A stretch of DNA of 44,285 bases from an uncultured bacterium (GTDB lineage Bacteria > Verrucomicrobiota > Kiritimatiellia > UBA8416 > CAMZLY01). Numbering within the stretch: position 1 is the stretch's first letter; each line of letters opens with the position of its first letter. This document shows, one piece after another, positions 1 to 11,724 of this stretch. Position numbers and translations under genes: made by a program. The stretch covers positions 1 to 44,285 of the forward strand of contig CAMZLY010000083.1 in NCBI GenBank assembly GCA_947311825.1. Reading direction: 5' to 3'. The notes beneath the pieces are model-generated. The model searched no databases and was not told the origin of the DNA. It saw only the letters and a program-made list of their open reading frames with translations.

Positions 1-148
1 TGTTGCTGCAATAAATGAGGATCAGAAACAAACAGGTGGTTTTACCAAGGCATTACTAAAATCAATTGCACTACTAAAAGAACGCCGAGCAGCCCTTATA
101 ACCGCTGCCGTTACAGGGCAGATTAAACAGGAGGAGATGATTGCATGA
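1..148 (+). CDS. hsdS: Type I R-M specificity subunit, C-terminal fragment (truncated by window start)
   Basis: Not in the ORF track. Frame 2 reads VAAINEDQKQTGGFTKALLKSIALLKERRAALITAAVTGQIKQEEMIA*; LLKERRAALITAAVTGQI matches the typical HsdS C-terminal helix. TGA 146-148 overlaps the next ATG (ATGA); hsdR lies downstream. Confidence 0.85.
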   Translation, partial: VAAINEDQKQTGGFTKALLKSIALLKERRAALITAAVTGQIKQEEMIA

Positions 149-1494
149 AATTGAAGAGGATTGCATTAGTAAATTTTAGAGGGTTTACAAAAATTGATAT
201 AGACTTCCACAATAATATAACCGTTATTGCAGGAGTCAATGGCAGTGGCAAATCCAGCATTCTCAAAGCTATTGCTGGGTTGGCCTCCTATCTTGTTCCA
301 GAAATATCACCTGCCAAGCGGAATGTGATTTCTTTCGATGATGATGATATTCAATACGGTGGACGTGCATTTAGTATAGACATGCAATTTAAGGGTGAAA
401 ATATTCAAACCTCCGCTCAGGTATTACGTTCTATACCTGATCCCCATAAAATTAAAGATTATCAGCAGGAGGTAGAAGATCTTCGAGCAAAGCGTCGTTT
501 TCTAAAAAAGGAATCAAAAGAAGATAATGATATTTTCGCACGTATTATAACCCTTGAACACATTTTGGGCGATAGTGAGGATGTTTTTATGCATCAGTCA
601 ATTCCAATTGAAGCCGCAACGGATAAGACCAAACCATCAGAATTGCTCGTTGTTCTTTATCCCACAAATCGCCATTTCACGAATCTTCCCACTCGCCTTG
701 CGGTTGTAAAAGCAACCACTACTTCAGATGCCTATGCAAATGCTTTACATGCAAAATCTATTTCGCTTAATGATTTTGCACATTGGTTTCGAGCCATAAA
801 GAATGGAAGCATAGGCAACGATGACTTCTGTAAAACTATTATTGAAATGCTTGAATCTACTATAGCCAACATGCTGCCTGGATTTCATAATCTAGATATA
901 GACACCACCCGCAAACCTCGTTTTACAATTGAAAAAGAGGGAAAACGATTAAGTTTAAATCAACTTTCAGACGGTGAACGCGGATTACTTGCTCTTGCTT
1001 TTGACCTGACTCGCCGACTAACAATTGCAAACCCAGAAAAAAAGAATCCTGTCCAAGAAGGCGAAGCCATTGTTTTAATTGATGAAACAGAATTACACCT
1101 GCATCCAAAGTGGCAACGTGAAGTGCTGAGGCGATTAACAACAACATTTAAGAACTGTCAGTTTATTGTGACAACTCATTCACCGCAAGTTATTGGAGAA
1201 GTTAAAGCCGGCAGCCTTAGACTCCTTTCAACAAATGAGAATAAGATTTTTGTTGAAACTCCCGGCATGGCCTACGGAACAGATTCAAACTGGATTCTTA
1301 ATGTCTTGATGGGTGGAAAAGATATGAATGCCGATGTTGAACAAGAATTAAATAACATTAATAAATGTATCTCCGAGAAAGAACTTGATACAGCAGAGAC
1401 TCTTATTCAGGCATTACGAGATAAAGTTGGCAATACGGTATCAATTCAGAAAGCATCTTCAATTATCGAAAGAATGAGGGTTCTAGGACGATGA
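145..1494 (+). CDS. ABC/AAA_21-type ATPase, Septu PtuA-like defence ATPase
   Basis: Walker A GVNGSGKS, signature-like LSDGE, Walker B/D-loop VLIDETELHLHPKWQ, H-loop TTHSP; coupled to a downstream HNH-like gene. Confidence 0.8.
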   Translation: MKLKRIALVNFRGFTKIDIDFHNNITVIAGVNGSGKSSILKAIAGLASYLVPEISPAKRNVISFDDDDIQYGGRAFSIDMQFKGENIQTSAQVLRSIPDPHKIKDYQQEVEDLRAKRRFLKKESKEDNDIFARIITLEHILGDSEDVFMHQSIPIEAATDKTKPSELLVVLYPTNRHFTNLPTRLAVVKATTTSDAYANALHAKSISLNDFAHWFRAIKNGSIGNDDFCKTIIEMLESTIANMLPGFHNLDIDTTRKPRFTIEKEGKRLSLNQLSDGERGLLALAFDLTRRLTIANPEKKNPVQEGEAIVLIDETELHLHPKWQREVLRRLTTTFKNCQFIVTTHSPQVIGEVKAGSLRLLSTNENKIFVETPGMAYGTDSNWILNVLMGGKDMNADVEQELNNINKCISEKELDTAETLIQALRDKVGNTVSIQKASSIIERMRVLGR

Positions 1495-2195
1495 GAAGAA
1501 TTATAAAATGTGATAGTCCAGATTGCCTAACAACATTTATTGCTGCACAGCAGTCAATAGAACCCGATCCTATAAATCTTACTTATGATGATTTCCCGAG
1601 AAAAACTGAGCTACTAAATATTCTTACCGCAGAACAATACGGGTTATGTGGATATACTGGAGTTGCTGTTGATGATCGTGTGTCAAGGCTTAGACGTGAT
1701 GATTCAATTGTATATTCTAATCATATTGAACACATGAAGTCTCAGAATGCGTGCAGACAAGAACTTGTCGACAATGGTTTAAATTATGGAACAGATTTAG
1801 CTGACGACTTAAATTACTCAAATATGATCGCCGCACTTGAAATAAGAGGTGCTGAAAGTGAGCATTTTGGTGCAGTTATAAAGAAAAACCATACATTACC
1901 GGTTTTGCCGACTGCCGAAGGATGCGAGCAAAGGTTTAGTTTTCAAGAGCCCGATGGAAAAGTTATAGGACTTGATGCTGATGCCTGCGAAAGCATAAAA
2001 GTGCTACAGTTAAACCATGAAACACTAATTGGATGGCGAAAAGCCGCTATTGATGCGTTCCTTGATCCCGAAATAGTTAAAACAATTGAAGACTTTAAGG
2101 CAATTGTTGATACTATAGACACTCTAAAAGAAGATAAGCTAATAGAATTTTCATTTGTCATAAAAAATATAGCAAAACAGTATTTAAAATCATGA
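1491..2195 (+). CDS. HNH-like protein, PtuB/TIGR02646-like, with degenerate Zn ligands
   Basis: N-terminal MRRIIK, EQYGLCGY, HIEH, LNYSNM and late LQLN-x-LIGWRK motifs; ATGA overlap with the ATPase. Confidence 0.7.
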   Translation: MRRIIKCDSPDCLTTFIAAQQSIEPDPINLTYDDFPRKTELLNILTAEQYGLCGYTGVAVDDRVSRLRRDDSIVYSNHIEHMKSQNACRQELVDNGLNYGTDLADDLNYSNMIAALEIRGAESEHFGAVIKKNHTLPVLPTAEGCEQRFSFQEPDGKVIGLDADACESIKVLQLNHETLIGWRKAAIDAFLDPEIVKTIEDFKAIVDTIDTLKEDKLIEFSFVIKNIAKQYLKS

Positions 2196-3073
2196 AACAG
2201 CCATTGAGTCCATTAAGGTATCCGGGCGGGAAGGCCGCGATTGCGCCATTTCTCGAAGATGTTATTGATCTGAATAATTTGCGTGGATGCAGCTATTTTG
2301 AGCCTTATGCCGGAGGTGCGGGGGCGGCACTGACTCTTTTGAAAAACGGTGTTATATCTGAAATACATATCAATGATGCCGACATCCGTATTTATTCGTT
2401 TTGGAAAAATGTATTAACGGAGAAGGATCGTTTTGTGGATAATATCTTTTCAATCCCGTTAACATTGGATGAATGGGGACGACAGAAGAAAATATGCGAC
2501 AACCCGGAAAATCATTCCGGATTTAAAATCGGATTTGCCGCATTTTATATGAACCGTTGTAATCGCTCCGGCATATTGCAGGGTGCAGGGCCGATTGGCG
2601 GGAAACAGCAAAAAGGAAACTGGAAACTGGATGTGCGTTTTAATCGTGAAAAACTTGCTGAGCGCATTATAACAATAGCGATGATGAAAAATTACATAAA
2701 TGTTTACAATGAAGATGCCATAAAGTTTCTTAAACAACAGCTTCCGAAAGGAAGAGGTCGCTCCGGGGCTTTTGCCTACCTTGATCCGCCCTATGTAAAC
2801 AAAGCCGACAAGCTTTATATGAACATTTACAACGAAAAGGATCATAGAGCAATCGCCCGATACCTCTTGCAGCAGAAAAAACTTCACTGGGTGCTTTCAT
2901 ACGATGACACCCCGCTGATTCAAGAAATATACAATGGACAGAAGATATGTAGACAATCTTTACGGTATTCTCTACAATCCAAGAGGATTGCTAAAGAATT
3001 AATAATTTCATCGGCGAAGGTAACACTTCCAAGCCAGTATTTTGAAAAGAAAAGAAAAGAGGCTGCAGCATGA
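2192..3073 (+). CDS. DNA adenine methyltransferase, Dam/D12 class
   Basis: SPLRYPGGK, motif I FEPYAGG, catalytic YLDPPY, WVLSYDD. Confidence 0.92.
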   Translation: MKQPLSPLRYPGGKAAIAPFLEDVIDLNNLRGCSYFEPYAGGAGAALTLLKNGVISEIHINDADIRIYSFWKNVLTEKDRFVDNIFSIPLTLDEWGRQKKICDNPENHSGFKIGFAAFYMNRCNRSGILQGAGPIGGKQQKGNWKLDVRFNREKLAERIITIAMMKNYINVYNEDAIKFLKQQLPKGRGRSGAFAYLDPPYVNKADKLYMNIYNEKDHRAIARYLLQQKKLHWVLSYDDTPLIQEIYNGQKICRQSLRYSLQSKRIAKELIISSAKVTLPSQYFEKKRKEAAA

Positions 3074-4167
3074 ATAAAGAAATAAGATCAATAGAAGTCA
3101 AAGAGCTTGATTTTGACCGCAAAAACCCGCGACTGATTGAATATGGAATCAAGTCAAATGCCACAGATGAAGACTTACTGAAAGTTTTATGGGAAACCAT
3201 GGATGTAATGGAAATTGTCCAATCCATTGCCGCAAGTGGATTTTTTCCGCATGAAGCTCTGATTATTGCGGAAGAAGCCGGAAAAAACATTGTGATAGAA
3301 GGCAACCGCAGATTGGCGGCATTGCGTGTTCTGCTTGATCCTGCAATAGCCGAAAATAATGGATGGACGGTTCCCGCTATAGATGAAGCAATCAAAATGC
3401 AGATAGAATCAGTTCCCTGTATCGTCTCAAGTCGGGATAATGCCTGGCGATATCTTGGATTCAAACATGTAAACGGTCCGGCAAAGTGGTCGAGTTATGC
3501 CAAAGCCGCATATATTGCCAAGGTGCATCATGAATCGGGCATTCCGTTAGCGCAAATTTCAGAGCAGATTGGTGACCGTCACAGAACAGTGCAAAAGCTG
3601 TATCGCGGCTTGATGGTTCTGGAACAGGCGGAACAAAGCGGTGTATATGATAGAGATGACCGCTGGAATACACGATTAGCTTTTTCACACCTTTACACGG
3701 GATTGGATCGCGACGGCATAAAGAATTTCATCAATGTCAGCCCTTTGGACGAAGAGGCGAAAAAGCCTGTACCTGAAGATAAACTTGAAGAGTTAGGCGA
3801 GCTGTGCAAATGGCTTTATGGAAGCAGAAGTGAAAAAGAACCACCGGTTATAAAAAGTCAGAATCCCGACCTGAAGCACCTAGATAAAGTAATAGCAAGC
3901 CGAGAAGCGATTTCCACTCTCAGGGCTACACATGATCTCACAGTTGCCTATGAACTAAGCCGCCCTTCAGGTACAGTTTTTGAGGAATCTCTGCTGGAGG
4001 CGAAACGAGGTCTGCAAAAGGCACATAAACATATGTCAACCGGATTCAACAATTCAACTGATCTATTAAAAATTGCGGGAAGTGTAGCCAACCTTGCCGA
4101 TGATCTCTACGAGCAGATGGAACGCAAGATGGATAAACAGAAAAATCGTATTAGCGAGGACAGCTGA
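3070..4167 (+). CDS. ParB/Srx N-terminal domain protein with uncharacterised C-terminal part
   Basis: FDRKNPR and VIEGNRRLAAL (ParB/Srx GxRR arginine patch); HTH-like AQISEQIGDRHRTVQK; no parA nearby. Confidence 0.8.
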   Translation: MNKEIRSIEVKELDFDRKNPRLIEYGIKSNATDEDLLKVLWETMDVMEIVQSIAASGFFPHEALIIAEEAGKNIVIEGNRRLAALRVLLDPAIAENNGWTVPAIDEAIKMQIESVPCIVSSRDNAWRYLGFKHVNGPAKWSSYAKAAYIAKVHHESGIPLAQISEQIGDRHRTVQKLYRGLMVLEQAEQSGVYDRDDRWNTRLAFSHLYTGLDRDGIKNFINVSPLDEEAKKPVPEDKLEELGELCKWLYGSRSEKEPPVIKSQNPDLKHLDKVIASREAISTLRATHDLTVAYELSRPSGTVFEESLLEAKRGLQKAHKHMSTGFNNSTDLLKIAGSVANLADDLYEQMERKMDKQKNRISEDS

Positions 4168-4169
4168 AT

Positions 4170-5102
4170 ATGTTTCGTCTGCCTGATAACCTACCAACAG
4201 AAAATTCATCTATTTCCGAGCTTGCCGATTTTATTGAAATTCTGGCTCTAAAAACCGGTGCTGCCTCACAACGGGAAATCGAACAGTATTTGTCCCAGCC
4301 AAGTGACAATGATTACAATATAGGCTGTGAAGACAGCGATGTAGAGATTGAGGGTATACTTGACGAGGCACTGAACGAAATAGATACAAGAAAAAAGTCA
4401 TGCGGAAATGATTGTGCTTATCCTTTTAATTTGCAAAATTCAGCAGGAACCGTATGCCGACTGAGTTATGACGAAACCAATCCGCAAAATATCGCATATA
4501 TCTATTTATTGCTTTCGACTAGATTCAACATGTCTGATAATCGCAAGCATGCAGAAATTGACGGCAGTCTTCTGCTTGAAGAACTTTCAGCAGAAGCCCT
4601 CAAAACATATTTAGGCGCTGAACGTGCCGAGTCGCTAGTTTTCGGAACAGCAACATCCGGAGGATTTAAAGAGAAGATAAATGACCTTTGCGGTAAAATT
4701 GGGGAGGGTGCCGGTTATGGCTGTCCTGATGGGGCTGTCAGACATACTCAGGACGGCAAGTTGGATGCCGTTGGTTGGATACCGTTCTCTGATGCCAATC
4801 CGGGGAAACTGATTGTATTTGGCCAATGTAAGACAGGCACAAGTTGGCATGATTCTGTCGCACAATTGCAACCAAGTAACTTTATTAAAAAATTTATGAG
4901 CGGATCACTGCACCTTGATCCCGTAAGAGCATTTTTTGTATCTGAGGCTATTAACCCAACAAAAAGAAACGGTTTAAGCATTGATGCCGGTATATTATTT
5001 GACCGCTGTCGAATTGTTGATTTCTGCGGAGAATTTTCGCCTGAATTAGTTGATAAATTAAAGAGTTGGGTGCATGCGGCAAAAGAAACTATAAATATTT
5101 AG
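4170..5102 (+). CDS. Hypothetical protein, putative PD-(D/E)xK (Mrr-like D...QxK) restriction-endonuclease fold
   Basis: LLEELSAEAL helix followed by DGKLDAVGW...LIVFGQCKTG, i.e. E...D...QxK geometry; in an operon with a methyltransferase. Confidence 0.6.
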   Translation: MFRLPDNLPTENSSISELADFIEILALKTGAASQREIEQYLSQPSDNDYNIGCEDSDVEIEGILDEALNEIDTRKKSCGNDCAYPFNLQNSAGTVCRLSYDETNPQNIAYIYLLLSTRFNMSDNRKHAEIDGSLLLEELSAEALKTYLGAERAESLVFGTATSGGFKEKINDLCGKIGEGAGYGCPDGAVRHTQDGKLDAVGWIPFSDANPGKLIVFGQCKTGTSWHDSVAQLQPSNFIKKFMSGSLHLDPVRAFFVSEAINPTKRNGLSIDAGILFDRCRIVDFCGEFSPELVDKLKSWVHAAKETINI

Positions 5103-5109
5103 AATCACA

Positions 5110-8100
5110 ATGAAACAGACCACAGAAAAAGCTTTTGAAGGTGCGATAGAAGAAGTATTGCTGGCTAATGGATATGAGCAGCATAGCTCAAGTGATTTTG
5201 ACCGTGAACTTGCTATATTTCCTGAGGTCGCTTTAGACTTTATCAGAGAAACCCAGCCGGAAGTATGGAGTAAACTGGAAGCTTTGCATGGCGACAAGAC
5301 TGGCGAGCGGGTTATTGCGGCTCTATGCAGATGGCTGGATTCACATGGTATATTGGCAACGTTACGGCATGGATTCAAGTGCTACGGTAAAACATTGCGG
5401 ATTGCTTTTTTCAAGCCGGCACATGGTCTGAATCCGGCCCTGAAAACCCGCTATGCTGCAAATACAATGGGATTAACCAGACAGCTGCATTTCAGTCCCA
5501 AGAATGAAAAATCACTTGATGTTACTTTAAGCGTGAATGGCATACCTGTGGTTACAATGGAACTGAAAAATCCACTCAGCGGGCAGACTGCAGCCAATGC
5601 CATTCATCAGTATCGTAATGATAGAGACCACCGGGAAAAGATATTCTCATTTAAGAAACGTACGCTTGTCCATTTTGCTGTGGATACCGAAGAGGTTCAC
5701 ATGACTACACGTCTGGCAGGCAGTGCCACGCATTTTCTGCCTTTTAATAAAGGGCGAGATGGTGGTGCAGGAAATCCTTCTGATCCCCATGGCCGCAACT
5801 ATCGCACCGCATACCTGTGGGAAGAGGTCTTGCAGCGCGACAGTCTATTGGATCTTTTAGCACGGTTCCTGCATGTACAGATTGAAGAGAGACGCACTGA
5901 TAACGGGCGAAAGGTAAAGAAGGAAACCATGATCTTTCCTCGTTATCACCAGCTACAAGCTGTTCGCTCTTTAGTGATGACGGCGGCAAAGGAGGGACCG
6001 GGGCATAATTATCTTATTGAACATTCGGCGGGAAGCGGAAAAAGTAATACCATTGGCTGGCTGGCTCATCGTCTTTCCAGCCTACATAATGTGAACGATG
6101 AGCGTGTTTTTGACAGCGTTATCGTTGTAACCGACCGTATTGTTCTTGATCAGCAGTTACAAAACACTATTTATCAGTTTGACCACCGTCAAGGTGTAGT
6201 ATTGAAGATTGATGAGGATTCCAGACAATTGGCTGAAGCATTGAAAAATGCTGTACCTATAATTATTACCACACTTCAAAAATTTCCATTTGTATCTCAG
6301 CAACTGTTAAAAATGTCCGAAGAAAGTGGCGAAGAAAGAACCCACCTGCCAACTCGTAAATGTGCTGTCATTGTAGATGAAGCCCATAGTTCACAATCCG
6401 GAGAAACCGCCACAGAACTAAAAGGGGTCCTAGGGGGAGAAGAGTTACGCAAGAAAGCAAAGAAAATTGCACAGGAAGAAGGCGAATCAAACCTTGAGAA
6501 AATGTATCGCAGCATGGCCAAGCGGGAACAGCAACCTAATCTATGCTTTTTTGCATTTACAGCCACACCGAAACATAAAACCCTTAAACTGTTTGGCCGT
6601 AATGGAAAATCATTTGATAAATATACAATGCGGCAGGCTATTGAAGAGCGGTTTATTGAAGATGTTTTGCAAAATTATGTCACATATAAAACTTATTACA
6701 AACTTCTAAAAGCATGTGAAGACGACCCCAATGTTGAGCGCAAGAAAGCCGCAAAAGCACTTAGTCGATATATGCGTCTGCATCCATATAATATTTCTCA
6801 GAAAACTTCTATTATGGTTGAGCATTTTCAAAACTTCACCCGCCATAAGATCGGGGGGCATGCAAAAGCGATGGTAGTTACCGGGTCACGACTGGAAGCT
6901 GTTCGTTATAAACAGGCTTTCGACAAGCTCATAGCAAAAAAAGGTTATCCAATAAAGAGTTTGGTTGCTTTTTCCGGTAGTGTTGTCGATGATAAGATTC
7001 CGGGAAAAACCTATACAGAAACAGAAATGAACAACGGCATACGGGAAAAAGATTTGCCTGACGAGTTTGCGACAATAGATTATCAGGTTTTGCTTGTAGC
7101 AGAAAAATACCAAACCGGTTTTGACCAACCTTTACTGCACACTATGTATGTGGATAAGCGTCTGGCAGGCATTCAGGCTGTGCAGACACTGTCAAGACTT
7201 AACCGTACCCACCCTCTTAAAGATGGAACTTTTGTTCTGGATTTTGTGAATAATCCGGATGAAATTCAAGAGGCATTCAAAGTATATTACGATGGTGCAA
7301 CCATGGGGGAAGATGTTGAGCCGGAACGCCTTTATGATATTAAAGCTGAATTGGATGAGTCCGGCATATATCTACAGGAGGAAATAAATGAATTCTGCAT
7401 GGTGTTTTTCGCACCTAAACAGCGTCAAAGTGCCTCCGACCACAAGACCATGAATGCTATATTAGACAAAGCCGCTAATCGCTTTAAGCTGTTACAGGAT
7501 GCCGAAGAAGATGAAGCAGAATTATGGCGAGGCAAACTATACGCATTTCGCAATCTTTATGGATTTCTCAGTCAGGTTATACCATATCAAGATAGCGACT
7601 TGGAAAAGCTTTATACGTATCTGAAACATTTGTCACTCAAATTGCCAAAGCGTAAATCCGGACCGGGGTATCAGTTTGATGATGAAGTTCAACTTGAATA
7701 TTACCGCCTACAGAAAATCAGCGAAGGATCAATTAGCCTGAATGATGGACTTGCAAAGCCTCTTGATGGACCAAAAGAGGTTGGTAGCGGTGCCGTTAGA
7801 GAAGATAATGTGCAACTCTCCAAATTAATAGATATCATTAACGAGCGATTTGGCGAAGAACTCAATGAGGCTGATCAGCTTTTCTTTGATCAGATGACAG
7901 AGACTGCAAGTCGCATGGATGCACTTAAACAGGCGGCTGAGAATAATCCTATCGGGAAATTTCAACTCGTTTTCAAACAGATACTTGAATCCCTATTCAT
8001 TGAACGCATGGACATGAACGAAGACCTATTTGCACGCTATATGAATGACCCTGAATTTCAAGAAGTGGTAGCCGGCTGGCTAGGACAGCAAGTTTACTCA

Positions 8101-8130
8101 AAAATCCCTAAACAAGTTTCATACCCATAA
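5110..8130 (+). CDS. hsdR: Type I restriction endonuclease subunit R
   Basis: Nuclease motif DVTLSVNGIPVVTMELK, Walker A HSAGSGKS, IVDEAH, FTATP, QTGFDQP, QTLSRLNR; 1006 aa. Confidence 0.96.
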   Translation: MKQTTEKAFEGAIEEVLLANGYEQHSSSDFDRELAIFPEVALDFIRETQPEVWSKLEALHGDKTGERVIAALCRWLDSHGILATLRHGFKCYGKTLRIAFFKPAHGLNPALKTRYAANTMGLTRQLHFSPKNEKSLDVTLSVNGIPVVTMELKNPLSGQTAANAIHQYRNDRDHREKIFSFKKRTLVHFAVDTEEVHMTTRLAGSATHFLPFNKGRDGGAGNPSDPHGRNYRTAYLWEEVLQRDSLLDLLARFLHVQIEERRTDNGRKVKKETMIFPRYHQLQAVRSLVMTAAKEGPGHNYLIEHSAGSGKSNTIGWLAHRLSSLHNVNDERVFDSVIVVTDRIVLDQQLQNTIYQFDHRQGVVLKIDEDSRQLAEALKNAVPIIITTLQKFPFVSQQLLKMSEESGEERTHLPTRKCAVIVDEAHSSQSGETATELKGVLGGEELRKKAKKIAQEEGESNLEKMYRSMAKREQQPNLCFFAFTATPKHKTLKLFGRNGKSFDKYTMRQAIEERFIEDVLQNYVTYKTYYKLLKACEDDPNVERKKAAKALSRYMRLHPYNISQKTSIMVEHFQNFTRHKIGGHAKAMVVTGSRLEAVRYKQAFDKLIAKKGYPIKSLVAFSGSVVDDKIPGKTYTETEMNNGIREKDLPDEFATIDYQVLLVAEKYQTGFDQPLLHTMYVDKRLAGIQAVQTLSRLNRTHPLKDGTFVLDFVNNPDEIQEAFKVYYDGATMGEDVEPERLYDIKAELDESGIYLQEEINEFCMVFFAPKQRQSASDHKTMNAILDKAANRFKLLQDAEEDEAELWRGKLYAFRNLYGFLSQVIPYQDSDLEKLYTYLKHLSLKLPKRKSGPGYQFDDEVQLEYYRLQKISEGSISLNDGLAKPLDGPKEVGSGAVREDNVQLSKLIDIINERFGEELNEADQLFFDQMTETASRMDALKQAAENNPIGKFQLVFKQILESLFIERMDMNEDLFARYMNDPEFQEVVAGWLGQQVYSKIPKQVSYP

Positions 8131-8152
8131 ATATATTAAAATTAACAGCAAA

Positions 8153-8833
8153 ATGAATTCCAACATCATATTCATAACCGGCATAGGCACTGACGTAGGC
8201 AAAACATTCGTTGCCGGACTATTTGCACGCTATCTGCACAAACAGGGACACTCCGTTATTACTCAGAAAATCGCACAAACCGGTTGTGTTGATCTATCGG
8301 AAGATATTACAACACATCGTGACTTAATGGGAATCGAACTCACGGCGGAAGATAAAATCGGTCTTACCTGCCCTTATATTTTCGAGCCTCCTATGTCACC
8401 GCATCTTGCGGCAAAACTAGCGGCAACGGAAATAGAAATCTCAAAAATAAATGCGGCAACGGATGAACTGGCAAAAAAATATGATTTCGTAATCGTCGAA
8501 GGTGTTGGCGGGCTATATGTACCATTAAATGACAACACAACAGTTATTGACTTCATTACAGAACGGGATTACCCCGTCATACTTGTCAGTTCAGCGACTC
8601 TAGGCAGCATCAATCATACCCTCATGTCCATAGAACTCTTAAAGCAAAACAATATCAACCTGCTGGGCATCGCCTACAATCTGCATAACGCCACTAATCC
8701 AATTATCACCGAAGATTCCAGAAACATATTCAAAAACGCCCTAAAAACCCATAACTACCCACCTGTTATTATAGATATTCCAGCGGTTAAGACGGATACA
8801 GTACCGGACATAGATTTTTCAGAAATATATTAA
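8153..8833 (+). CDS. bioD: Dethiobiotin synthase
   Basis: FITGIGTDVGKT, SPHLAA, VEGVGG, LGSINHT. Confidence 0.95.
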   Translation: MNSNIIFITGIGTDVGKTFVAGLFARYLHKQGHSVITQKIAQTGCVDLSEDITTHRDLMGIELTAEDKIGLTCPYIFEPPMSPHLAAKLAATEIEISKINAATDELAKKYDFVIVEGVGGLYVPLNDNTTVIDFITERDYPVILVSSATLGSINHTLMSIELLKQNNINLLGIAYNLHNATNPIITEDSRNIFKNALKTHNYPPVIIDIPAVKTDTVPDIDFSEIY

Positions 8834-8922: not shown

Positions 8923-11724
8923 CTACATCTGAATAACATCGGCAAGTTCACGTGCCAAATCGTTAATTCTAAACGGCTTAACTAGGCGTCCCTTAAATCC
9001 ATAATCCGTATAATTCGCCAATACCGGATCAACGGAATAACCACTAGAGACAATAACCTTAACATCTGAGTTTACCTCTAAAAACTTATTAATCGCATCC
9101 TTACCGCCCATACCACCAGGAATGGTTAGATCCATAATCACTATATCAAATGGAGTCCCTGCCTTATCCGCAGCAATATATTTTTCAAGTGCCTCAACAC
9201 CATCACGGGCAGACTCGCAAGTATAGCCACACGCTTTCAACATAGCCTTTGATATTTTTATAATTATTTCTTCATCATCCATTACCAATATATGCCCCAA
9301 TGGAGATTCTGTTTTTCTTATAACTTCAATTTTGGTTGCTTTATTAAGTTTCTCAGAAGATTTCTCTGCCGGCAATAGAACTGTAAATGTTGTACCAACA
9401 CCCACCGTAGAAACAACACTAATATCACCATTATGCTTAGCAATAATGCTCTGTACAGTTGCTAGTCCTAAGCCATTGCCGGATTGTTTTGTACTAAAAT
9501 ATGGATCAAAAATCTTATCTAAATCTTTTGCCGCAATACCACAGCCATTATCGCTAATAGTAAGTTTAACAAAATCTCCAGACAATTCGGGATGTGCAGA
9601 ATCGGAAATGTTCTTAACATTTTCAGCATCAATACATAAAGTGCCACCCTGCGGCATCGCCTGATCAGCATTAATTGTTAAATTGGCAACCACCTGATTG
9701 AGCTGACCTTTGTCAGCCTTAACCTGCCACAAATCATCGGGCAAGTTAAACTGAGCCTTTACATTACTTCCACTTAGATTAAACTTTACGGACTCAGTAA
9801 CCACATCCTGCAACTCTACTGCGGCTAGAATAGGAACCCCACCTTTCGCAAAAGTTAAAAGTTGCTTTGTTAAATTTTTAGCCCTACTCAGAGCCTGTTC
9901 TGCCATTTCTATGTATTGATATGAGCTATGTTCTTTCAACAATTCACACTTTGCTAGTTCAATATTGCCAAAAAGACCCGTAAGGACATTATTAAAATCA
10001 TGGGCAATGCCACCAGCGAGTACTCCAATTGACTCAAGCTTCTTGGCATTAAGCAGTGCAGACTCAGCCTTTCGTTGAGTTGTTACATCACGGAAAACCA
10101 AAACGACACCACGAATACTGCTATCTGCCCCCCTTATAGGTGCCGCACTATCAGAAATATAATACTCTTTACCATCCTTAGAAATCAAAATAGAATCGCT
10201 TGCCAACTCGACAATATGTCCTTTTGCTAAAACCCGATCTACGGGATTGATCACTATTTCCCTTGTCTCTTCATGTATAATACAAAACACTTCCGGCAAC
10301 ATCTTGCCCGCAGCCTCAGCCATACGCCAGCCGGTAATATCCTCAGCGACCGTATTCATCAACTCAATACGCCCAGCAGTGTCTGTTGTAATAACCCCGT
10401 CACCAATAGAATGCAAGGTAACAGCAAGTTGTTCTTTCTCATTATCAAGAGCTTGTCTTGCGAATATTTTATCTTGCAACATTTCATTAGCACTAATCGC
10501 CAACTCATCAAACTCTGAAAACTTTATAGCCCTATGGTCTACCGGCTCATTAGAATGTACCGCTCTCTTGAAGAATGCAATAAATTGACTAAAATCTTTG
10601 TCAAGCCTTGCACTAACTCTATTAAAGAACCACAAGAACAGCAGAATTGTTACAGTAATAAAAGCAATAAACAACAGAAGCTTTTTCTTGATCTGTTGAT
10701 TTAATATCGCTTGTTTTGCTAATATAATCGGCTCAATATCATCTAAATATACACCCGTTGCCAAACAACACCCCCATTCCGGCAAGCCCACAGCAAATGT
10801 AATCTTCTGGCGTTCATCTTCACTTTCTGGTTTGTGCCACCAGTATTTTACACAACCACCATGCTTGTATTTGGAAACCGCAATAAGTTTCTGAACAAAT
10901 TTTGTTCCTTTACTATCAGCCAAATCCCACATGTTTCTATTTATGTGTGTAGGCTGGGTACTATGTGCTAGCACGACACCCTTCCAGTTAATGGCAAAAA
11001 AGTATCCATTTCTCCCGTAATGAGTGCTATTAACTCGTTCTAAGAAATTAGCCTTAACTAGCTTCTCAGCATCATCCATATAAAAACCAGTTCCAATAAT
11101 CCAGTTATACGGCTTGAACATTCTAACATATACTACCCTTCTATACCGATCACCATTTTTATCTGGTTTATTACGGAAGAACTCATAAAAACCTTGTTCT
11201 GACTCTTCCGAAATCTTAATCATATCTTTAACATAATAGTTTCCTGCAACATCCTGACTGTCAAAAAAATTCTTCCCTTCAAGCTCCGGATCATTTTTAC
11301 ATAGAATTTTTGTTCCATCTGAAGAATAAATAAAATAATAACCCTGATTCTGGTCAAATCTTATTGTACGTAAAGCATCTATAATGACCTTTTTTATTTC
11401 AGTATCCGATTTAATATCTTTGTTTTGTTGATAAATATTCTGTGCTATACTACATGCAACATAAGCTCTTGATTTAAGTTTTTTTCTTTCATTAGTGATG
11501 ATTTTTCGTCTATTTACATCAATTAAATCAACAAACCGCTCAGCCTCCCGCTTAATTATCTGCATCTGCTGTTCAATGTAATCAGTACGCATTTTTTTTG
11601 CACTGATATTAAAATCGCGATATGTACTAAAAACATCAATCGAAATTATGCTTATCCCTAATGAAAGCAATAATACCAGCCCCCATAACTTAATAAACTT
11701 AATATAACTGATCTTTTTTTTCAT
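8923..11724 (-). CDS. Membrane hybrid sensor histidine kinase (tandem Cache_2-like, PAS, HisKA, HATPase, REC)
   Basis: Two TM segments flanking two Cache-like units (GYYFIY, GYFFAI), PAS SIGDGVITTD, H-box AGGIAHDFNN, FDPYFSTK/GNGLGL, REC ILVMDDE...DLTIPGG. Confidence 0.92.
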   Translation of the reverse strand: MKKKISYIKFIKLWGLVLLLSLGISIISIDVFSTYRDFNISAKKMRTDYIEQQMQIIKREAERFVDLIDVNRRKIITNERKKLKSRAYVACSIAQNIYQQNKDIKSDTEIKKVIIDALRTIRFDQNQGYYFIYSSDGTKILCKNDPELEGKNFFDSQDVAGNYYVKDMIKISEESEQGFYEFFRNKPDKNGDRYRRVVYVRMFKPYNWIIGTGFYMDDAEKLVKANFLERVNSTHYGRNGYFFAINWKGVVLAHSTQPTHINRNMWDLADSKGTKFVQKLIAVSKYKHGGCVKYWWHKPESEDERQKITFAVGLPEWGCCLATGVYLDDIEPIILAKQAILNQQIKKKLLLFIAFITVTILLFLWFFNRVSARLDKDFSQFIAFFKRAVHSNEPVDHRAIKFSEFDELAISANEMLQDKIFARQALDNEKEQLAVTLHSIGDGVITTDTAGRIELMNTVAEDITGWRMAEAAGKMLPEVFCIIHEETREIVINPVDRVLAKGHIVELASDSILISKDGKEYYISDSAAPIRGADSSIRGVVLVFRDVTTQRKAESALLNAKKLESIGVLAGGIAHDFNNVLTGLFGNIELAKCELLKEHSSYQYIEMAEQALSRAKNLTKQLLTFAKGGVPILAAVELQDVVTESVKFNLSGSNVKAQFNLPDDLWQVKADKGQLNQVVANLTINADQAMPQGGTLCIDAENVKNISDSAHPELSGDFVKLTISDNGCGIAAKDLDKIFDPYFSTKQSGNGLGLATVQSIIAKHNGDISVVSTVGVGTTFTVLLPAEKSSEKLNKATKIEVIRKTESPLGHILVMDDEEIIIKISKAMLKACGYTCESARDGVEALEKYIAADKAGTPFDIVIMDLTIPGGMGGKDAINKFLEVNSDVKVIVSSGYSVDPVLANYTDYGFKGRLVKPFRINDLARELADVIQM

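What the first reader, a model, noticed from the sequence alone, without database searches (positions are those of the whole stretch)
1..8130. Type I R-M operon carrying two complete-looking defence modules between hsdS and hsdR
Seen: hsdS-ATPase-HNH-MTase-ParB are chained by four successive ATGA stop/start overlaps (145, 1491, 2192, 3070), then gaps of only 2 and 7 nt to the nuclease-like gene and hsdR. No room remains for internal intergenic promoters and no mobile-element scars are visible. Known: the hsdS-hsdR interval can host guard effectors such as PrrC in EcoprrI. Inference: five integrated cargo genes form a layered system, possibly backing up or monitoring the Type I enzyme against anti-restriction proteins.
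Basis: partly seen in the sequence, partly recalled or inferred. Interest (0 to 1): 0.75.

Follow-up and report, generated by a model that had tools for sequence, protein, structure and literature searches.

The report
Type I restriction operon with two embedded defence cassettes
A bacterial Type I restriction operon carries two separate anti-phage modules between its specificity and nuclease genes, a known kind of arrangement, but one module is a widespread three-gene system that has not been characterised.

Summary
Window 2-8130 reads hsdS (3' end), ptuA, ptuB, a Dam-class methyltransferase, a ParB-like protein, a winged-helix/PD-(D/E)xK nuclease, then hsdR. There are four ATGA overlaps and gaps of 2 and 7 nt.

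Module 1 is Septu (PtuA/PtuB). Module 2 is a conserved three-gene cassette. Its methyltransferase and the ParB N-domain match PD-Lambda-5 models; its nuclease matches no family library.

The cassette is autonomous. Among 80 loci holding the nuclease, the ParB-like gene is adjacent in 77, the same-type methyltransferase in 52, and only 7 hold an HsdR.

The hsdS-hsdR slot of this HsdR clade is a cargo site. It is never empty in 64 of 64 assessable metagenomic relatives. Septu fills it in 35; the rest include DarTG, SoFic, IetAS and GmrSD-like genes. Only the window combines Septu with the trio.

Contigs from the source sample also show a Septu-less allele, with hsdS joined directly to the methyltransferase at a 7-nt repeat.

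Embedding defence genes in Type I operons is already published. No evidence supports the idea that the cargo monitors the Type I enzyme. The new elements are the trio, which looks like a restriction-modification system, and the near-invariant ATGA junction after hsdS.

The parts
2..148 (+). 3' end of hsdS (last 48 codons plus stop); cut by the contig start
   Evidence: Translation. It is 54-62% identical to the C-termini of HsdS in cognate loci. The junction sequence is homologous to hsdS/ptuA junctions in L097, L105, L110 and L128.
145..1494 (+). ptuA, the Septu ABC-type ATPase (449 aa)
   Evidence: PADLOC PtuA model PDLC00271, E 7.9e-118, full length. Pfam AAA_15, AAA_21 and SMC_N. Walker A (GVNGSGKS), signature (LSDGE) and Walker B (LIDETE) are visible. 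The NCBIfam retron-type PtuA model scores 271.9 bits, below its 500-bit cut-off.
1491..2195 (+). ptuB, the Septu HNH-type nuclease partner (234 aa)
   Evidence: PADLOC PtuB model PDLC00346, E 1e-33, full length. NCBIfam PtuB and TIGR02646 score below their cut-offs. No Pfam hit.
2192..3073 (+). D12-class (Dam-like) N6-adenine DNA methyltransferase (293 aa)
   Evidence: Pfam MethyltransfD12, E 1.1e-15. PADLOC PD-Lambda-5_B model PDLC04018, E 5.6e-107, full length. The DPPY motif and an FEPYAGGAG SAM-binding loop are visible.
3070..4167 (+). ParB/Srx-fold protein: ParB N-domain, HTH and a helical C-terminal part (365 aa)
   Evidence: PADLOC PD-Lambda-5_A matches residues 7-168 only, against profile positions 13-176 of 473 (E 4.9e-21); PDC-M38A matches residues 45-354. 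AlphaFold model pLDDT 90.0. Foldseek matches KorB, ParB and Noc at E 1.8e-6 to 5e-6, probability 1.0. The GNRR motif aligns with the GERR motif of ParB 4umk. No Pfam or NCBIfam hit.
4170..5102 (+). Winged-helix plus PD-(D/E)xK-type nuclease (310 aa), in no family library
   Evidence: No hit in Pfam, NCBIfam or PADLOC. Model pLDDT 90.2. The best fold match is the MspJI cleavage domain, Z 7.0, rmsd 4.2 over 151 residues, Foldseek E 1.4e-3. Winged-helix matches cover residues 12 to about 120. D195, D199, Q219 and K221 are invariant in 35 sequences.
5110..8130 (+). hsdR, the Type I restriction subunit (1006 aa)
   Evidence: Pfam HSDR_N, SWI2_SNF2, ResIII and T1R_D3-like are all above their cut-offs. 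PADLOC REase_I, E 1.3e-39. TIGR00348 scores 206 bits, below its 284.55-bit cut-off. Metagenomic HsdR proteins that sit in hsdM-hsdS-cargo-hsdR operons are 70-83% identical.
144..150 (+). CATGAAA, left copy of the 7-nt direct repeat bounding the Septu cassette (spans the hsdS stop and ptuA start)
   Evidence: The joint is ambiguous by exactly 7 nt.
2191..2200 (+). CATGAAA, right copy (2191-2197), overlapping ATGAAACAG (2192-2200), the left copy of the 9-nt repeat bounding the trio
5110..5118 (+). ATGAAACAG, right copy of the 9-nt repeat, at the hsdR start
   Evidence: The 9-mer occurs 3 times in the 44-kb window, 2 of them at these gene starts.

Best explanation
The locus is a Type I restriction-modification operon whose hsdS-hsdR interval serves as a cargo slot. 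Here it holds two autonomous anti-phage modules, translationally chained to the Type I genes.

The inferred order is hsdM (probably at the end of contig C157), hsdS, ptuA-ptuB, the methyltransferase, the ParB-like gene, the nuclease, then hsdR.

Module 1 is a type I Septu system. PtuA is an ABC-type ATPase that holds the HNH nuclease PtuB. Characterised relatives cleave tRNA-Tyr on infection.

Module 2 is a three-gene system that looks like restriction-modification and is related to PD-Lambda-5. I infer that:
- the Dam-class methyltransferase marks host DNA;
- the ParB-like protein, an NTP-binding DNA-binding or clamp-type fold with an HTH, finds unmarked DNA;
- it then licenses the winged-helix/PD-(D/E)xK nuclease, whose cleavage domain resembles those of MspJI and FokI, to cut.

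The modules do not need the Type I enzyme. They share its transcription (inferred), so the cell expresses three defences with different targets together.

Shown: the gene identities, the junctions, the autonomy and spread of the trio, the variability of the slot, and the Septu presence/absence polymorphism.

Inferred: co-transcription, the order of events in the trio, and the link between C157 and the window.
For: Identities: families; folds; invariant residues.

The trio is a unit.
- In 80 loci holding a homologue of the nuclease (the best 80 of 203 confirmed in 185,579 species genomes), the ParB-like gene is directly upstream in 77 and the same-type D12 methyltransferase is adjacent in 52.
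- In many loci the ParB-like stop abuts or overlaps the nuclease start by about 1 nt (inferred from the coordinates).
- These loci span many phyla.
- Other methyltransferases can take the place: a second D12 clade in L021, L027, L063 and L076; a NotI-like REase plus a D12 MTase in L041 and L053; a C5 methyltransferase beside a ParB-like gene and a 330-aa partner at the portal-adjacent site of P2-like phages.

The trio is autonomous. Only 7 of 80 loci hold an HsdR. In the Pfam scan of 89 upstream neighbours, others had unrelated neighbours such as sigma-70, rpoC and sulfatase genes; many gave no Pfam hit.

The slot is a cargo site.
- 64 of 80 metagenomic loci with HsdR 70-83% identical were assessable, and none had an empty interval (772-4763 nt).
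- PtuA was present in 35, the trio in 1 (L088) and an Old-like gene in 1.
- Among the other 27, the representatives scanned gave DarTG, SoFic, dCTPase-like, HEC-06, IetAS, PDC-M23, PDC-M24, M78 peptidase with DUF4411, Zeta-like kinase and Schlafen/AlbA.
- Double cargo occurs elsewhere, in L094, L009, L075 and L081.

The modules are separable. A joint 143-2191, skipping 2047 nt, is seen in contigs of runs X3 and X4.

Other points.
- Cargo proteins are 43-61% identical across these loci, while HsdR is 71-80% identical.
- The HsdM at the end of C157 is 85% identical to the HsdM of L088.
- PD-Lambda-5 was cloned in an mrr-deleted host and is described as a compacted 'RM+Abi' system (PMC9519451, passages read).
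- Septu and PtuAB cleave tRNA-Tyr (abstract openings of PMC13096335 and PMC12673091 in the listing).
Against: - No expression data exist: no RNA run holds the locus, so co-transcription is inferred from spacing alone.
- The order of events in the trio is untested.
- About a fifth of the ParB-nuclease pairs have no D12 methyltransferase detected in the locus. A strict restriction-modification logic would not predict this.
- The fold match of the nuclease is only middling (Z 7.0, in the range the tool calls common).
- The K of the QxK motif is not kept in the P2-phage partner.
- Outside Type I loci the trio is not embedded among known defence genes: 5 of 93 downstream neighbours match PADLOC at E <= 1e-25.
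- Septu fills 35 of 64 slots in this HsdR clade. Besides inheritance, this could reflect a functional tie to Type I that I did not test.
- The 80 loci include near-duplicates (for example L158, L160 and L161; L135 and L136), so the counts are not independent.
- The ptuB/methyltransferase junction rests on this one assembled contig.
Confidence: 0.72

Rival explanations
1. Guard model. The cargo, Septu above all, is kept latent by the HsdMSR complex. It fires when a phage anti-restriction protein disables the Type I enzyme, as PrrC does with EcoprrI.
For: - Septu occupies the slot in 35 of 64 relatives of this HsdR, with a conserved hsdS/ptuA junction.
- PtuA is an ABC ATPase that also hits AriA models (E 2e-29). 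From memory, AriA of PARIS is triggered by Ocr.
- PrrC is almost exclusively embedded in Type I systems (10.1101/2024.01.29.577857, section 10).
- The tight translational chaining would fix the stoichiometry.
Against: - The same slot holds at least ten unrelated systems, and in 29 of 64 relatives it holds no Septu.
- A Septu-less allele of this very operon coexists in the sample.
- Septu is described as widespread outside such contexts, and only 0.7% of Septu systems are embedded in Hma (passage read).
- The trio is outside Type I loci in 73 of 80 cases.
- No interaction was tested.
Confidence: 0.12
2. The trio is not a self/non-self restriction-modification system. In this reading the ParB-like protein and the nuclease form a sensor-effector pair: either an abortive-infection type, or a Type IV-like pair aimed at modified or otherwise marked phage DNA. 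The methyltransferase would be an independent or regulatory companion.
For: - PD-Lambda-5 is called 'RM+Abi' by its discoverers.
- ParB/Srx-type N-domains joined to nucleases are the hallmark of Type IV enzymes such as GmrSD and BrxU (PMC12839542 and PMC11411939, passages).
- The best fold match of the nuclease is MspJI, a modification-dependent enzyme.
- Some ParB-nuclease pairs have no methyltransferase detected nearby.
Against: - 52 of 80 loci have the same-type methyltransferase immediately upstream, in the same orientation and with the gene ends abutting or overlapping (inferred from the coordinates; counts).
- Further loci carry another D12 or a C5 methyltransferase.
- A Type IV enzyme would be expected to avoid a co-encoded methyltransferase unless it is blind to that mark.
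Confidence: 0.18
3. Assembly artefact. The contig merges two strain alleles, one hsdS-Septu-hsdR and one hsdS-trio-hsdR, so no real molecule carries both cassettes.
For: - The window comes from a metagenome-assembled genome (214 contigs, 88% complete).
- At least two alleles exist in the sample.
- No other locus among 80 + 80 examined combines Septu with the trio.
- None of the 32 contig pieces listed spans position 2192 in the with-Septu form (34 further pieces were not shown).
Against: - The two candidate alleles would share only 9 nt (ATGAAACAG) at the would-be crossover. That is too short to cause a false join in a k-mer assembly (inference).
- No ptuB-to-hsdR joint (2191 to 5110) was reported. 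This absence is weak evidence.
- The ptuB stop and methyltransferase start form a clean ATGA overlap.
Confidence: 0.05

Closest known systems
Defence systems embedded between hsdS and hsdR of Type I operons: DarTG2 in the EPEC RRDM island (PMC12255303), TgvAB in V. cholerae VPI-2 (PMC11411939), PrrC in EcoprrI, and the 'guilt-by-embedding' survey (10.1101/2024.01.29.577857)
   Same: Autonomous defence genes sit inside a Type I operon, mostly between hsdS and hsdR, co-oriented and apparently co-expressed. The site is already proposed to be a recombination hotspot (PMC12255303, passage).
   Different: - Here two cassettes sit in one slot, in a combination (Septu plus trio) not seen in the 160 other loci examined.
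- The slot of this HsdR clade was never empty (64 of 64).
- 56 of 64 relatives have ATGA at the hsdS stop whatever the cargo.
- A presence/absence polymorphism of one cassette is seen directly.
Septu type I (PtuA/PtuB; Doron 2018, recalled; PADLOC models)
   Same: Full-length matches to PtuA and PtuB models, gene order ptuA then ptuB with overlap, intact ATPase motifs, no reverse transcriptase.
   Different: - It is only 41-43% (PtuA) and 52% (PtuB) identical to the Septu pairs checked in related Type I loci (L128, L097).
- It scores below the NCBIfam cut-offs for the retron Ec78 type.
- It is embedded in a Type I operon rather than in Hma, which is the embedding described in the passages I read.
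PD-Lambda-5 (Vassallo et al. 2022, PMC9519451)
   Same: The methyltransferase matches PD-Lambda-5_B over its full length (E 5.6e-107). The ParB N-domain matches PD-Lambda-5_A (E 4.9e-21). Both are compact, restriction-modification-like, and found in mobile contexts.
   Different: - PD-Lambda-5 has two genes. Its A protein is about 430-590 aa, and only its first ~170 positions match.
- Here the rest of the ParB-like protein differs, and a third gene (the nuclease) with no PADLOC model is added.
- I could not read the published domain figure, so the C-terminal domain of PD-Lambda-5_A is unknown to me.
GmrSD/BrxU/SspE/TgvB-type enzymes (ParB/Srx-like NTPase domain plus nuclease)
   Same: A ParB/Srx-fold domain is coupled to a DNA nuclease in a defence context.
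   Different: - Those enzymes have a DUF262-type domain fused to an HNH (DUF1524) domain in one chain and are modification-dependent.
- Here a canonical ParB-like N-domain with an HTH is on one protein, a PD-(D/E)xK nuclease is on another, and a methyltransferase is co-encoded.
P2-like phage hotspot module beside the portal gene Q (for example Escherichia phage vB_EcoM-12474III, NC_049457.1)
   Same: A ParB N-domain protein of 372 aa (30% identity over 89% of the window protein) is followed by an overlapping 330-aa partner that is weakly similar to the nuclease (21% over 284 aa, E 0.002), with an adjacent DNA methyltransferase.
   Different: The methyltransferase is a C5-cytosine enzyme on the opposite strand. 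The partner lacks the K of QxK in the pairwise alignment. The genes are annotated only as hypothetical or ParB-domain proteins.

Membership tests
Type I restriction-modification system | HsdR with an N-terminal nuclease domain, an SF2 motor and a helical domain | tested here: met
   Pfam HSDR_N, SWI2_SNF2, ResIII and T1R_D3-like are above their cut-offs. TIGR00348 scores 206 bits, below its 284.55-bit cut-off.
Type I restriction-modification system | HsdS specificity subunit in the operon | tested here: met
   Only the last 48 aa are present. They align to HsdS C-termini of cognate loci at 54-62% identity, E down to 3e-13. Pfam gives no hit on the fragment.
Type I restriction-modification system | HsdM methyltransferase in the same operon | tested here: inconclusive
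   HsdM is not on the window. The end of contig C157 carries an open HsdM (HsdM_N plus N6_Mtase) that is 85% identical to the HsdM of L088. The join to the window is inferred.
Septu (PtuA/PtuB), type I | PtuA ABC-type ATPase, full length, with intact motifs | tested here: met
   PDLC00271, E 7.9e-118, residues 1-447 against profile 1-417 of 421. Walker A, signature and Walker B are seen.
Septu (PtuA/PtuB), type I | PtuB HNH nuclease encoded immediately downstream | tested here: met
   PDLC00346, E 1e-33, full length, with an ATGA overlap. I did not verify the HNH catalytic residues residue by residue.
Septu (PtuA/PtuB), type I | No reverse transcriptase or retron (which would make it type II / retron I-A) | tested here: met
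   No RT domain in any ORF of 1-8833. NCBIfam retron Ec78 PtuA and PtuB score below their cut-offs.
PD-Lambda-5 | B component: D12-class methyltransferase | tested here: met
   PDLC04018, E 5.6e-107, residues 1-288 against profile 1-284 of 291.
PD-Lambda-5 | A component matched over its length (profiles mostly 430-590 positions) | tested here: not met
   Only residues 7-168 match profile positions 13-176 of 473. All 24 PD-Lambda-5_A models listed match the N-terminal part only.
PD-Lambda-5 | Two-gene architecture | tested here: not met
   There are three genes. The third (4170-5102) has no PADLOC hit and is conserved next to the ParB-like gene in 77 of 80 loci.
ParB/Srx superfamily | ParB N-domain fold with the GxRR arginine motif | tested here: met
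   Foldseek matches KorB, ParB and Noc at E 1.8e-6 to 5e-6, probability 1.0. G78, N79, R80 and R81 are invariant in 40 sequences and align to the GERR motif of 4umk. No Pfam ParB-domain model hit the protein (no family at E <= 10). NTP binding cannot be tested here.
PD-(D/E)xK nuclease superfamily | Restriction-endonuclease-like core with a D...(E/Q)xK catalytic motif | tested here: inconclusive
   Best Z is 7.0, to the MspJI cleavage domain; other REases score Z 5-6; Foldseek E 1.4e-3. D199, Q219 and K221 are invariant. That this motif corresponds to the MspJI D...QxK site is recalled from memory, not tested.
PrrC-type guard of a Type I enzyme | Effector kept latent by HsdMSR and released by a phage anti-restriction factor | not testable with these tools
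   This needs genetics or biochemistry. The context argues against obligate coupling.

The most novel reading that the evidence does not exclude
Two linked ideas.

(1) The methyltransferase, ParB-like protein and winged-helix/PD-(D/E)xK nuclease form a new, phylum-spanning class of restriction-modification-like system. A ParB-type, nucleotide-gated DNA clamp finds unmethylated DNA and licenses a separate FokI/MspJI-like cleavage subunit, and the methyltransferase can be swapped (Dam-class, a second D12 clade, C5).

(2) In this HsdR clade the ATGA at the hsdS stop marks a dedicated cassette-exchange point. Whole defence modules are gained or lost there exactly at start/stop overlaps through very short repeats, as caught here in the Septu-plus/Septu-minus polymorphism of one natural population.
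Probability: 0.3. Interest if true: 0.65.

Novelty: new variant of a known kind. Interest (0 to 1): 0.45.

Why it matters
Embedding defence genes in Type I operons is established, so the locus as first described is one more example.

Three results go further.
- **A candidate new system.** The three-gene methyltransferase/ParB-like/nuclease cassette is widespread: 203 hits in one-genome-per-species data and 736 protein clusters. Its nuclease matches no model in the family libraries searched here (Pfam, NCBIfam, PADLOC). It links ParB-type proteins to restriction. It is a well-defined candidate for experimental work and would extend PD-Lambda-5.
- **A natural catalogue of cargo.** One HsdR clade always has something in the hsdS-hsdR slot, with more than ten cargo types and a near-invariant ATGA junction. 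This could be used both to find new defence genes and to study how cassettes are exchanged.
- **A direct snapshot of cassette turnover.** A Septu-less allele in the same sample shows gain or loss of a cassette at nucleotide resolution.

Tried and rejected
- **Complex prediction** of the ParB-like protein with the nuclease: score 0.25, below the 0.32 mark, so no verdict. I do not use it as evidence.
- **Fused forms of the nuclease** (proteins of 544-2000 aa): none found. The tool rates this as weak evidence.
- **Nuclease against plasmids** (tblastn): no match.
- **Nuclease profile against PDB sequences**: only chance-level hits.
- **ESM Atlas**: the family's own unnamed clusters, plus HaeII- and BsobI-type REases at 0.82 and 0.80, which are leads only.
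- **Finding PD-Lambda-5_A through phage methyltransferase hits**: the Pseudomonas phage fragment has the B-type methyltransferase but no A-type neighbour.
- **RNA evidence**: no RNA holder is listed.
- **Earlier notes of this scan**: nothing returned.
- **A general microhomology rule for cassette ends.** The first script called starts wrongly and is discarded. The corrected one shows that the cargo start and the hsdR start mostly share only ATGA or ATGAA (4-5 nt in 31 of 54 loci scored). The 7- and 9-nt repeats in the window are longer than usual, but I do not claim they are significant.
- **Composition**: GC is 38-47% across the operon, with no sharp boundary.
- **Literature** for the trio and for Septu inside Type I operons (most hits were the word 'septum'): I found no description of either. 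Figures and supplements of the embedding preprint were not seen and may list them.

Full report
**1. The observation**

The window is the first 44,285 bases of contig C83 of a 214-contig, 88%-complete genome. Seven co-directional reading frames fill 2-8130. ATGA start/stop overlaps lie at 145, 1491, 2192 and 3070. A 2-nt gap precedes 4170 and a 7-nt gap precedes 5110.

The 48-codon fragment at 2-148 is not recognised by Pfam. It does align to the last residues of HsdS proteins in loci that encode close relatives of the downstream HsdR, at 54-62% identity and E down to 3e-13. Its junction with the next gene is visibly homologous to hsdS/ptuA junctions elsewhere. The upstream fragment is therefore hsdS, cut by the contig end.

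Consensus promoter and terminator scans give chance-level counts: 22 against 21.0 expected, and 7 against 7.6.

**2. Gene identities**

- **145-1494 is PtuA.** PADLOC PDLC00271 matches at E 7.9e-118 over the full length. The ABC/SMC-type ATPase motifs are intact.
- **1491-2195 is PtuB.** PDLC00346 matches at E 1e-33.
- **These two form a type I Septu system.** There is no reverse transcriptase, and the retron-type NCBIfam models score below their cut-offs.
- **2192-3073 is a D12-class adenine methyltransferase** with a DPPY motif. It matches PD-Lambda-5_B over its full length at E 5.6e-107.
- **3070-4167 is a ParB-like protein.**
  - It has no Pfam or NCBIfam hit.
  - Its first ~170 residues match PD-Lambda-5_A models, and residues 45-354 match PDC-M38A.
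  - A confident model (pLDDT 90.0) matches KorB, ParB and Noc N-domain-plus-HTH structures at Foldseek E 1.8e-6 to 5e-6.
  - The invariant G78-N79-R80-R81 aligns with the GERR motif of a ParB.
- **4170-5102 is a nuclease with no hit in any family library**.
  - Its model (pLDDT 90.2) has an N-terminal winged helix and a C-terminal restriction-endonuclease-like domain.
  - The best match is the MspJI cleavage domain: Z 7.0, rmsd 4.2 over 151 residues, Foldseek E 1.4e-3. Other REases follow at Z 5-6.
  - D195, D199, Q219 and K221 are invariant in 35 homologues.
  - The fold score is only middling, so I call this a probable PD-(D/E)xK nuclease.
- **5110-8130 is HsdR**.
- **8153-8833 is bioD**, where the island ends.

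**3. The upstream part of the operon**

No hsdM is in the window. In the same genome, contig C157 ends in an open HsdM (HsdM_N plus N6_Mtase), preceded by a Fic-domain gene. This HsdM is 75-85% identical to the HsdM proteins that accompany close relatives of the window's HsdR. The hsdM fragment at the end of contig C175 is only 25-31% identical. I infer that C157 is followed by a gap (the end of hsdM and most of hsdS) and then by the window. This is not shown.

**4. The trio is an autonomous, widespread cassette**

The nuclease family has 736 clusters at E <= 1e-3 in the protein collection, all about 300-350 aa and without Pfam domains. A scan of one genome per species gave 203 confirmed loci, of which I examined the best 80.

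- The ParB-like gene lies directly upstream of the nuclease in 77 of 80. Of the three exceptions, one has the nuclease at the locus edge.
- In many of these loci the ParB-like stop abuts or overlaps the nuclease start by about 1 nt. I infer this from the ORF coordinates and did not count it.
- The same-type D12 methyltransferase is adjacent in 52 of 80.
- Other loci carry a second D12 clade, on the opposite strand or fused (L021, L027, L063, L076), or a NotI-like REase with a D12 MTase (L041, L053).
- Only 7 of 80 loci contain an HsdR. Pfam finds an HsdS directly upstream of the methyltransferase in 6 of them, out of 89 neighbour proteins scanned.
- Other loci are set among unrelated genes; many neighbours gave no Pfam hit.
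- Of 93 downstream neighbours scanned, 5 matched PADLOC models at E <= 1e-25. Outside Type I operons the trio is therefore mostly a solo element.

P2-like phages carry a cognate module beside the portal gene. It consists of a 372-aa ParB N-domain protein (30% identity over 89% of the window protein), an overlapping 330-aa partner weakly similar to the nuclease (21% over 284 aa, E 0.002), and a C5 methyltransferase on the other strand.

The constant core is thus the ParB-like protein and its partner, with exchangeable methyltransferases. This is what a restriction module with a protective methylase would look like. PD-Lambda-5, the nearest named system, was cloned in an mrr-deleted host, and its discoverers call it a compacted RM+Abi system (PMC9519451, passages read).

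**5. The hsdS-hsdR interval is a cargo slot in this HsdR clade**

A metagenome scan with HsdR returned 317 relatives. I examined the best 80, which are 70-83% identical.

- 64 loci contained both an upstream hsdS and the start of hsdR. Five lacked the HsdR start and eleven lacked an upstream hsdS within the DNA held.
- None of the 64 had an empty interval. Lengths run from 772 to 4763 nt; the window's interval is 4961 nt.
- PtuA-type genes fill 35, the trio fills 1 (L088), an Old-like ATPase fills 1, and other cargo fills 27.
- PADLOC and Pfam scans of representatives (45 and 30 proteins) identified: DarT/DarG, SoFic, dCTPase-like, HEC-06 (GmrSD-like), IetA/IetS, PDC-M23 (Hachiman-like), PDC-M24, M78 peptidase with DUF4411, Zeta-like kinase, PIN, 23S-rRNA-IVP-like proteins and Schlafen/AlbA-HATPase proteins.
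- Double or multiple cargo occurs elsewhere: L094 (M78/DUF4411 plus PtuAB), L009 (trio plus a Schlafen/AlbA-Fic_C protein), L075 and L081 (TIR or GmrSD between hsdM and hsdS, then the trio, then further genes before hsdR).
- No locus other than the window combines Septu with the trio.
- Cargo proteins are much less conserved than the frame. Against L088, HsdR is 80% identical, the methyltransferase 59%, the ParB-like protein 56% and the nuclease 44%. Against L128, HsdR is 76%, PtuA 43% and PtuB 52%.
- These loci include near-duplicates, so the counts are descriptive and not independent.

**6. Junctions and turnover**

In 56 of the 64 loci the hsdS stop reads ATGA, and in 2 more it reads GTGA. 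The first cargo gene is therefore coupled to hsdS in the same way whatever the cargo is. I have no explanation beyond selection for translational coupling or exchange by recombination in the conserved flanks.

In the window, CATGAAA occurs at both ends of the Septu cassette (144-150 and 2191-2197). ATGAAACAG occurs at both ends of the trio (2192 and 5110). In relatives, the cargo start and the hsdR start mostly share only 4-5 nt (31 of 54 loci scored), so I do not claim these repeats are significant.

Independently assembled contigs of four runs of one sample were laid on the locus. They gave a joint from 143 to 2191, skipping 2047 nt, in two runs (flank lengths 22 and 67 nt; joint ambiguous by 7 nt). 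Single-base differences at 112 and 2305 appear in the same run (X4) as the better-supported joint contig. A closely related allele with hsdS joined directly to the methyltransferase therefore coexists in the sample. This is the arrangement seen in L006, L009 and L088. The depth is low (about 2.4-2.9), and all four runs are one sample.

In 40 relatives of the genome, no match to the cargo region beyond short fragments was found. The one same-genus genome (74% complete) has bioD but no match to the operon.

**7. Mechanism**

Shown: three defence modules of different kinds are chained in one direction with no intergenic space.

Inferred: they are transcribed together from the Type I promoter, which would lie upstream of hsdM on another contig.

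- **Type I enzyme.** It cuts DNA lacking its own methylation.
- **Septu.** By analogy with characterised PtuAB, which cleaves tRNA-Tyr on infection (abstract openings), it would act on the host translation apparatus.
- **Trio.** My proposal is that the Dam-class enzyme methylates a short motif. The ParB-like protein uses its HTH and its nucleotide-binding N-domain to recognise or load at unmethylated sites. It then recruits or activates the winged-helix nuclease.

I give the restriction-modification reading of the trio roughly 45-50%. The overall 'autonomous cassettes in a cargo slot' reading gets about 0.7.

**8. Relation to what is known, and novelty**

Defence genes embedded in Type I operons are in print.
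- PrrC.
- RloF and TgvAB (PMC11411939, passages).
- DarTG2 between hsdS and hsdR, with the site called a potential recombination hotspot (PMC12255303, passages).

In the passages I read, Septu embedding is described for Hma. I found no text on Septu inside Type I operons or on the three-gene cassette. I did not see figures or supplements, and they may list them.

The locus is therefore a new example and a new combination of a known kind. The trio is an uncharacterised variant related to PD-Lambda-5. It fails two of that family's three defining features as tested: the full-length A protein and the two-gene architecture.

The guard hypothesis is not excluded, but nothing found here supports it.

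Noticed in passing
G000 contig C157:12194-13660 (locus L175:3194-4660), directly upstream of the open hsdM at the contig end: A 488-aa protein with a Fic/DOC domain (Pfam E 1.3e-10) precedes hsdM. SoFic-type Fic proteins are also a common cargo in the hsdS-hsdR slot of related operons (the L098 type, eight loci with a 1181-1182-nt interval, only L098 scanned).
   Followed up: partly
G000 contig C175:17095-18101 and contig C181:739-4424: The genome holds at least two further Type I-like loci. C175 ends with a half-size HsdS (204 aa) followed by the N-terminus of a different HsdM, only 25-31% identical to the clade studied. C181 carries a 922-aa open frame with N6_Mtase, followed by Methylase_S hits, one of them with an in-frame TGA.
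   Followed up: no
L086-L165 (metagenomic relatives of HsdR), at the hsdS stop: 56 of 64 loci have ATGA, and 2 have GTGA, at the hsdS stop regardless of cargo type, so the first cargo gene is always coupled to hsdS in the same way. The cause is unexplained.
   Followed up: partly
L075:4693-5619, L081:3446-5554, L060:3260-5041: In some Type I operons that carry the trio, a second slot between hsdM and hsdS is also occupied: by a ThsB-like TIR protein, a GmrSD-type enzyme and a reverse-transcriptase-domain protein respectively.
   Followed up: no
L119:429-1223, L132:9279-10004; own genome L175:910-1566: Proteins with a weak match to the 23S rRNA intervening-sequence protein family (below the Pfam cut-off) recur as small cargo in the slot and near the hsdM contig of the window's genome.
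   Followed up: no
L041:6903-7868, L053:6963-7784: In two Pseudomonadota genomes, a NotI-like restriction endonuclease with its own D12 methyltransferase sits directly upstream of the ParB-like/nuclease pair, in place of the usual methyltransferase.
   Followed up: no
window 8923-11724 (- strand): A hybrid sensor kinase (dCache, PAS, HisKA, HATPase and receiver domains) lies downstream of bioD. It is unrelated to the defence locus.
   Followed up: no
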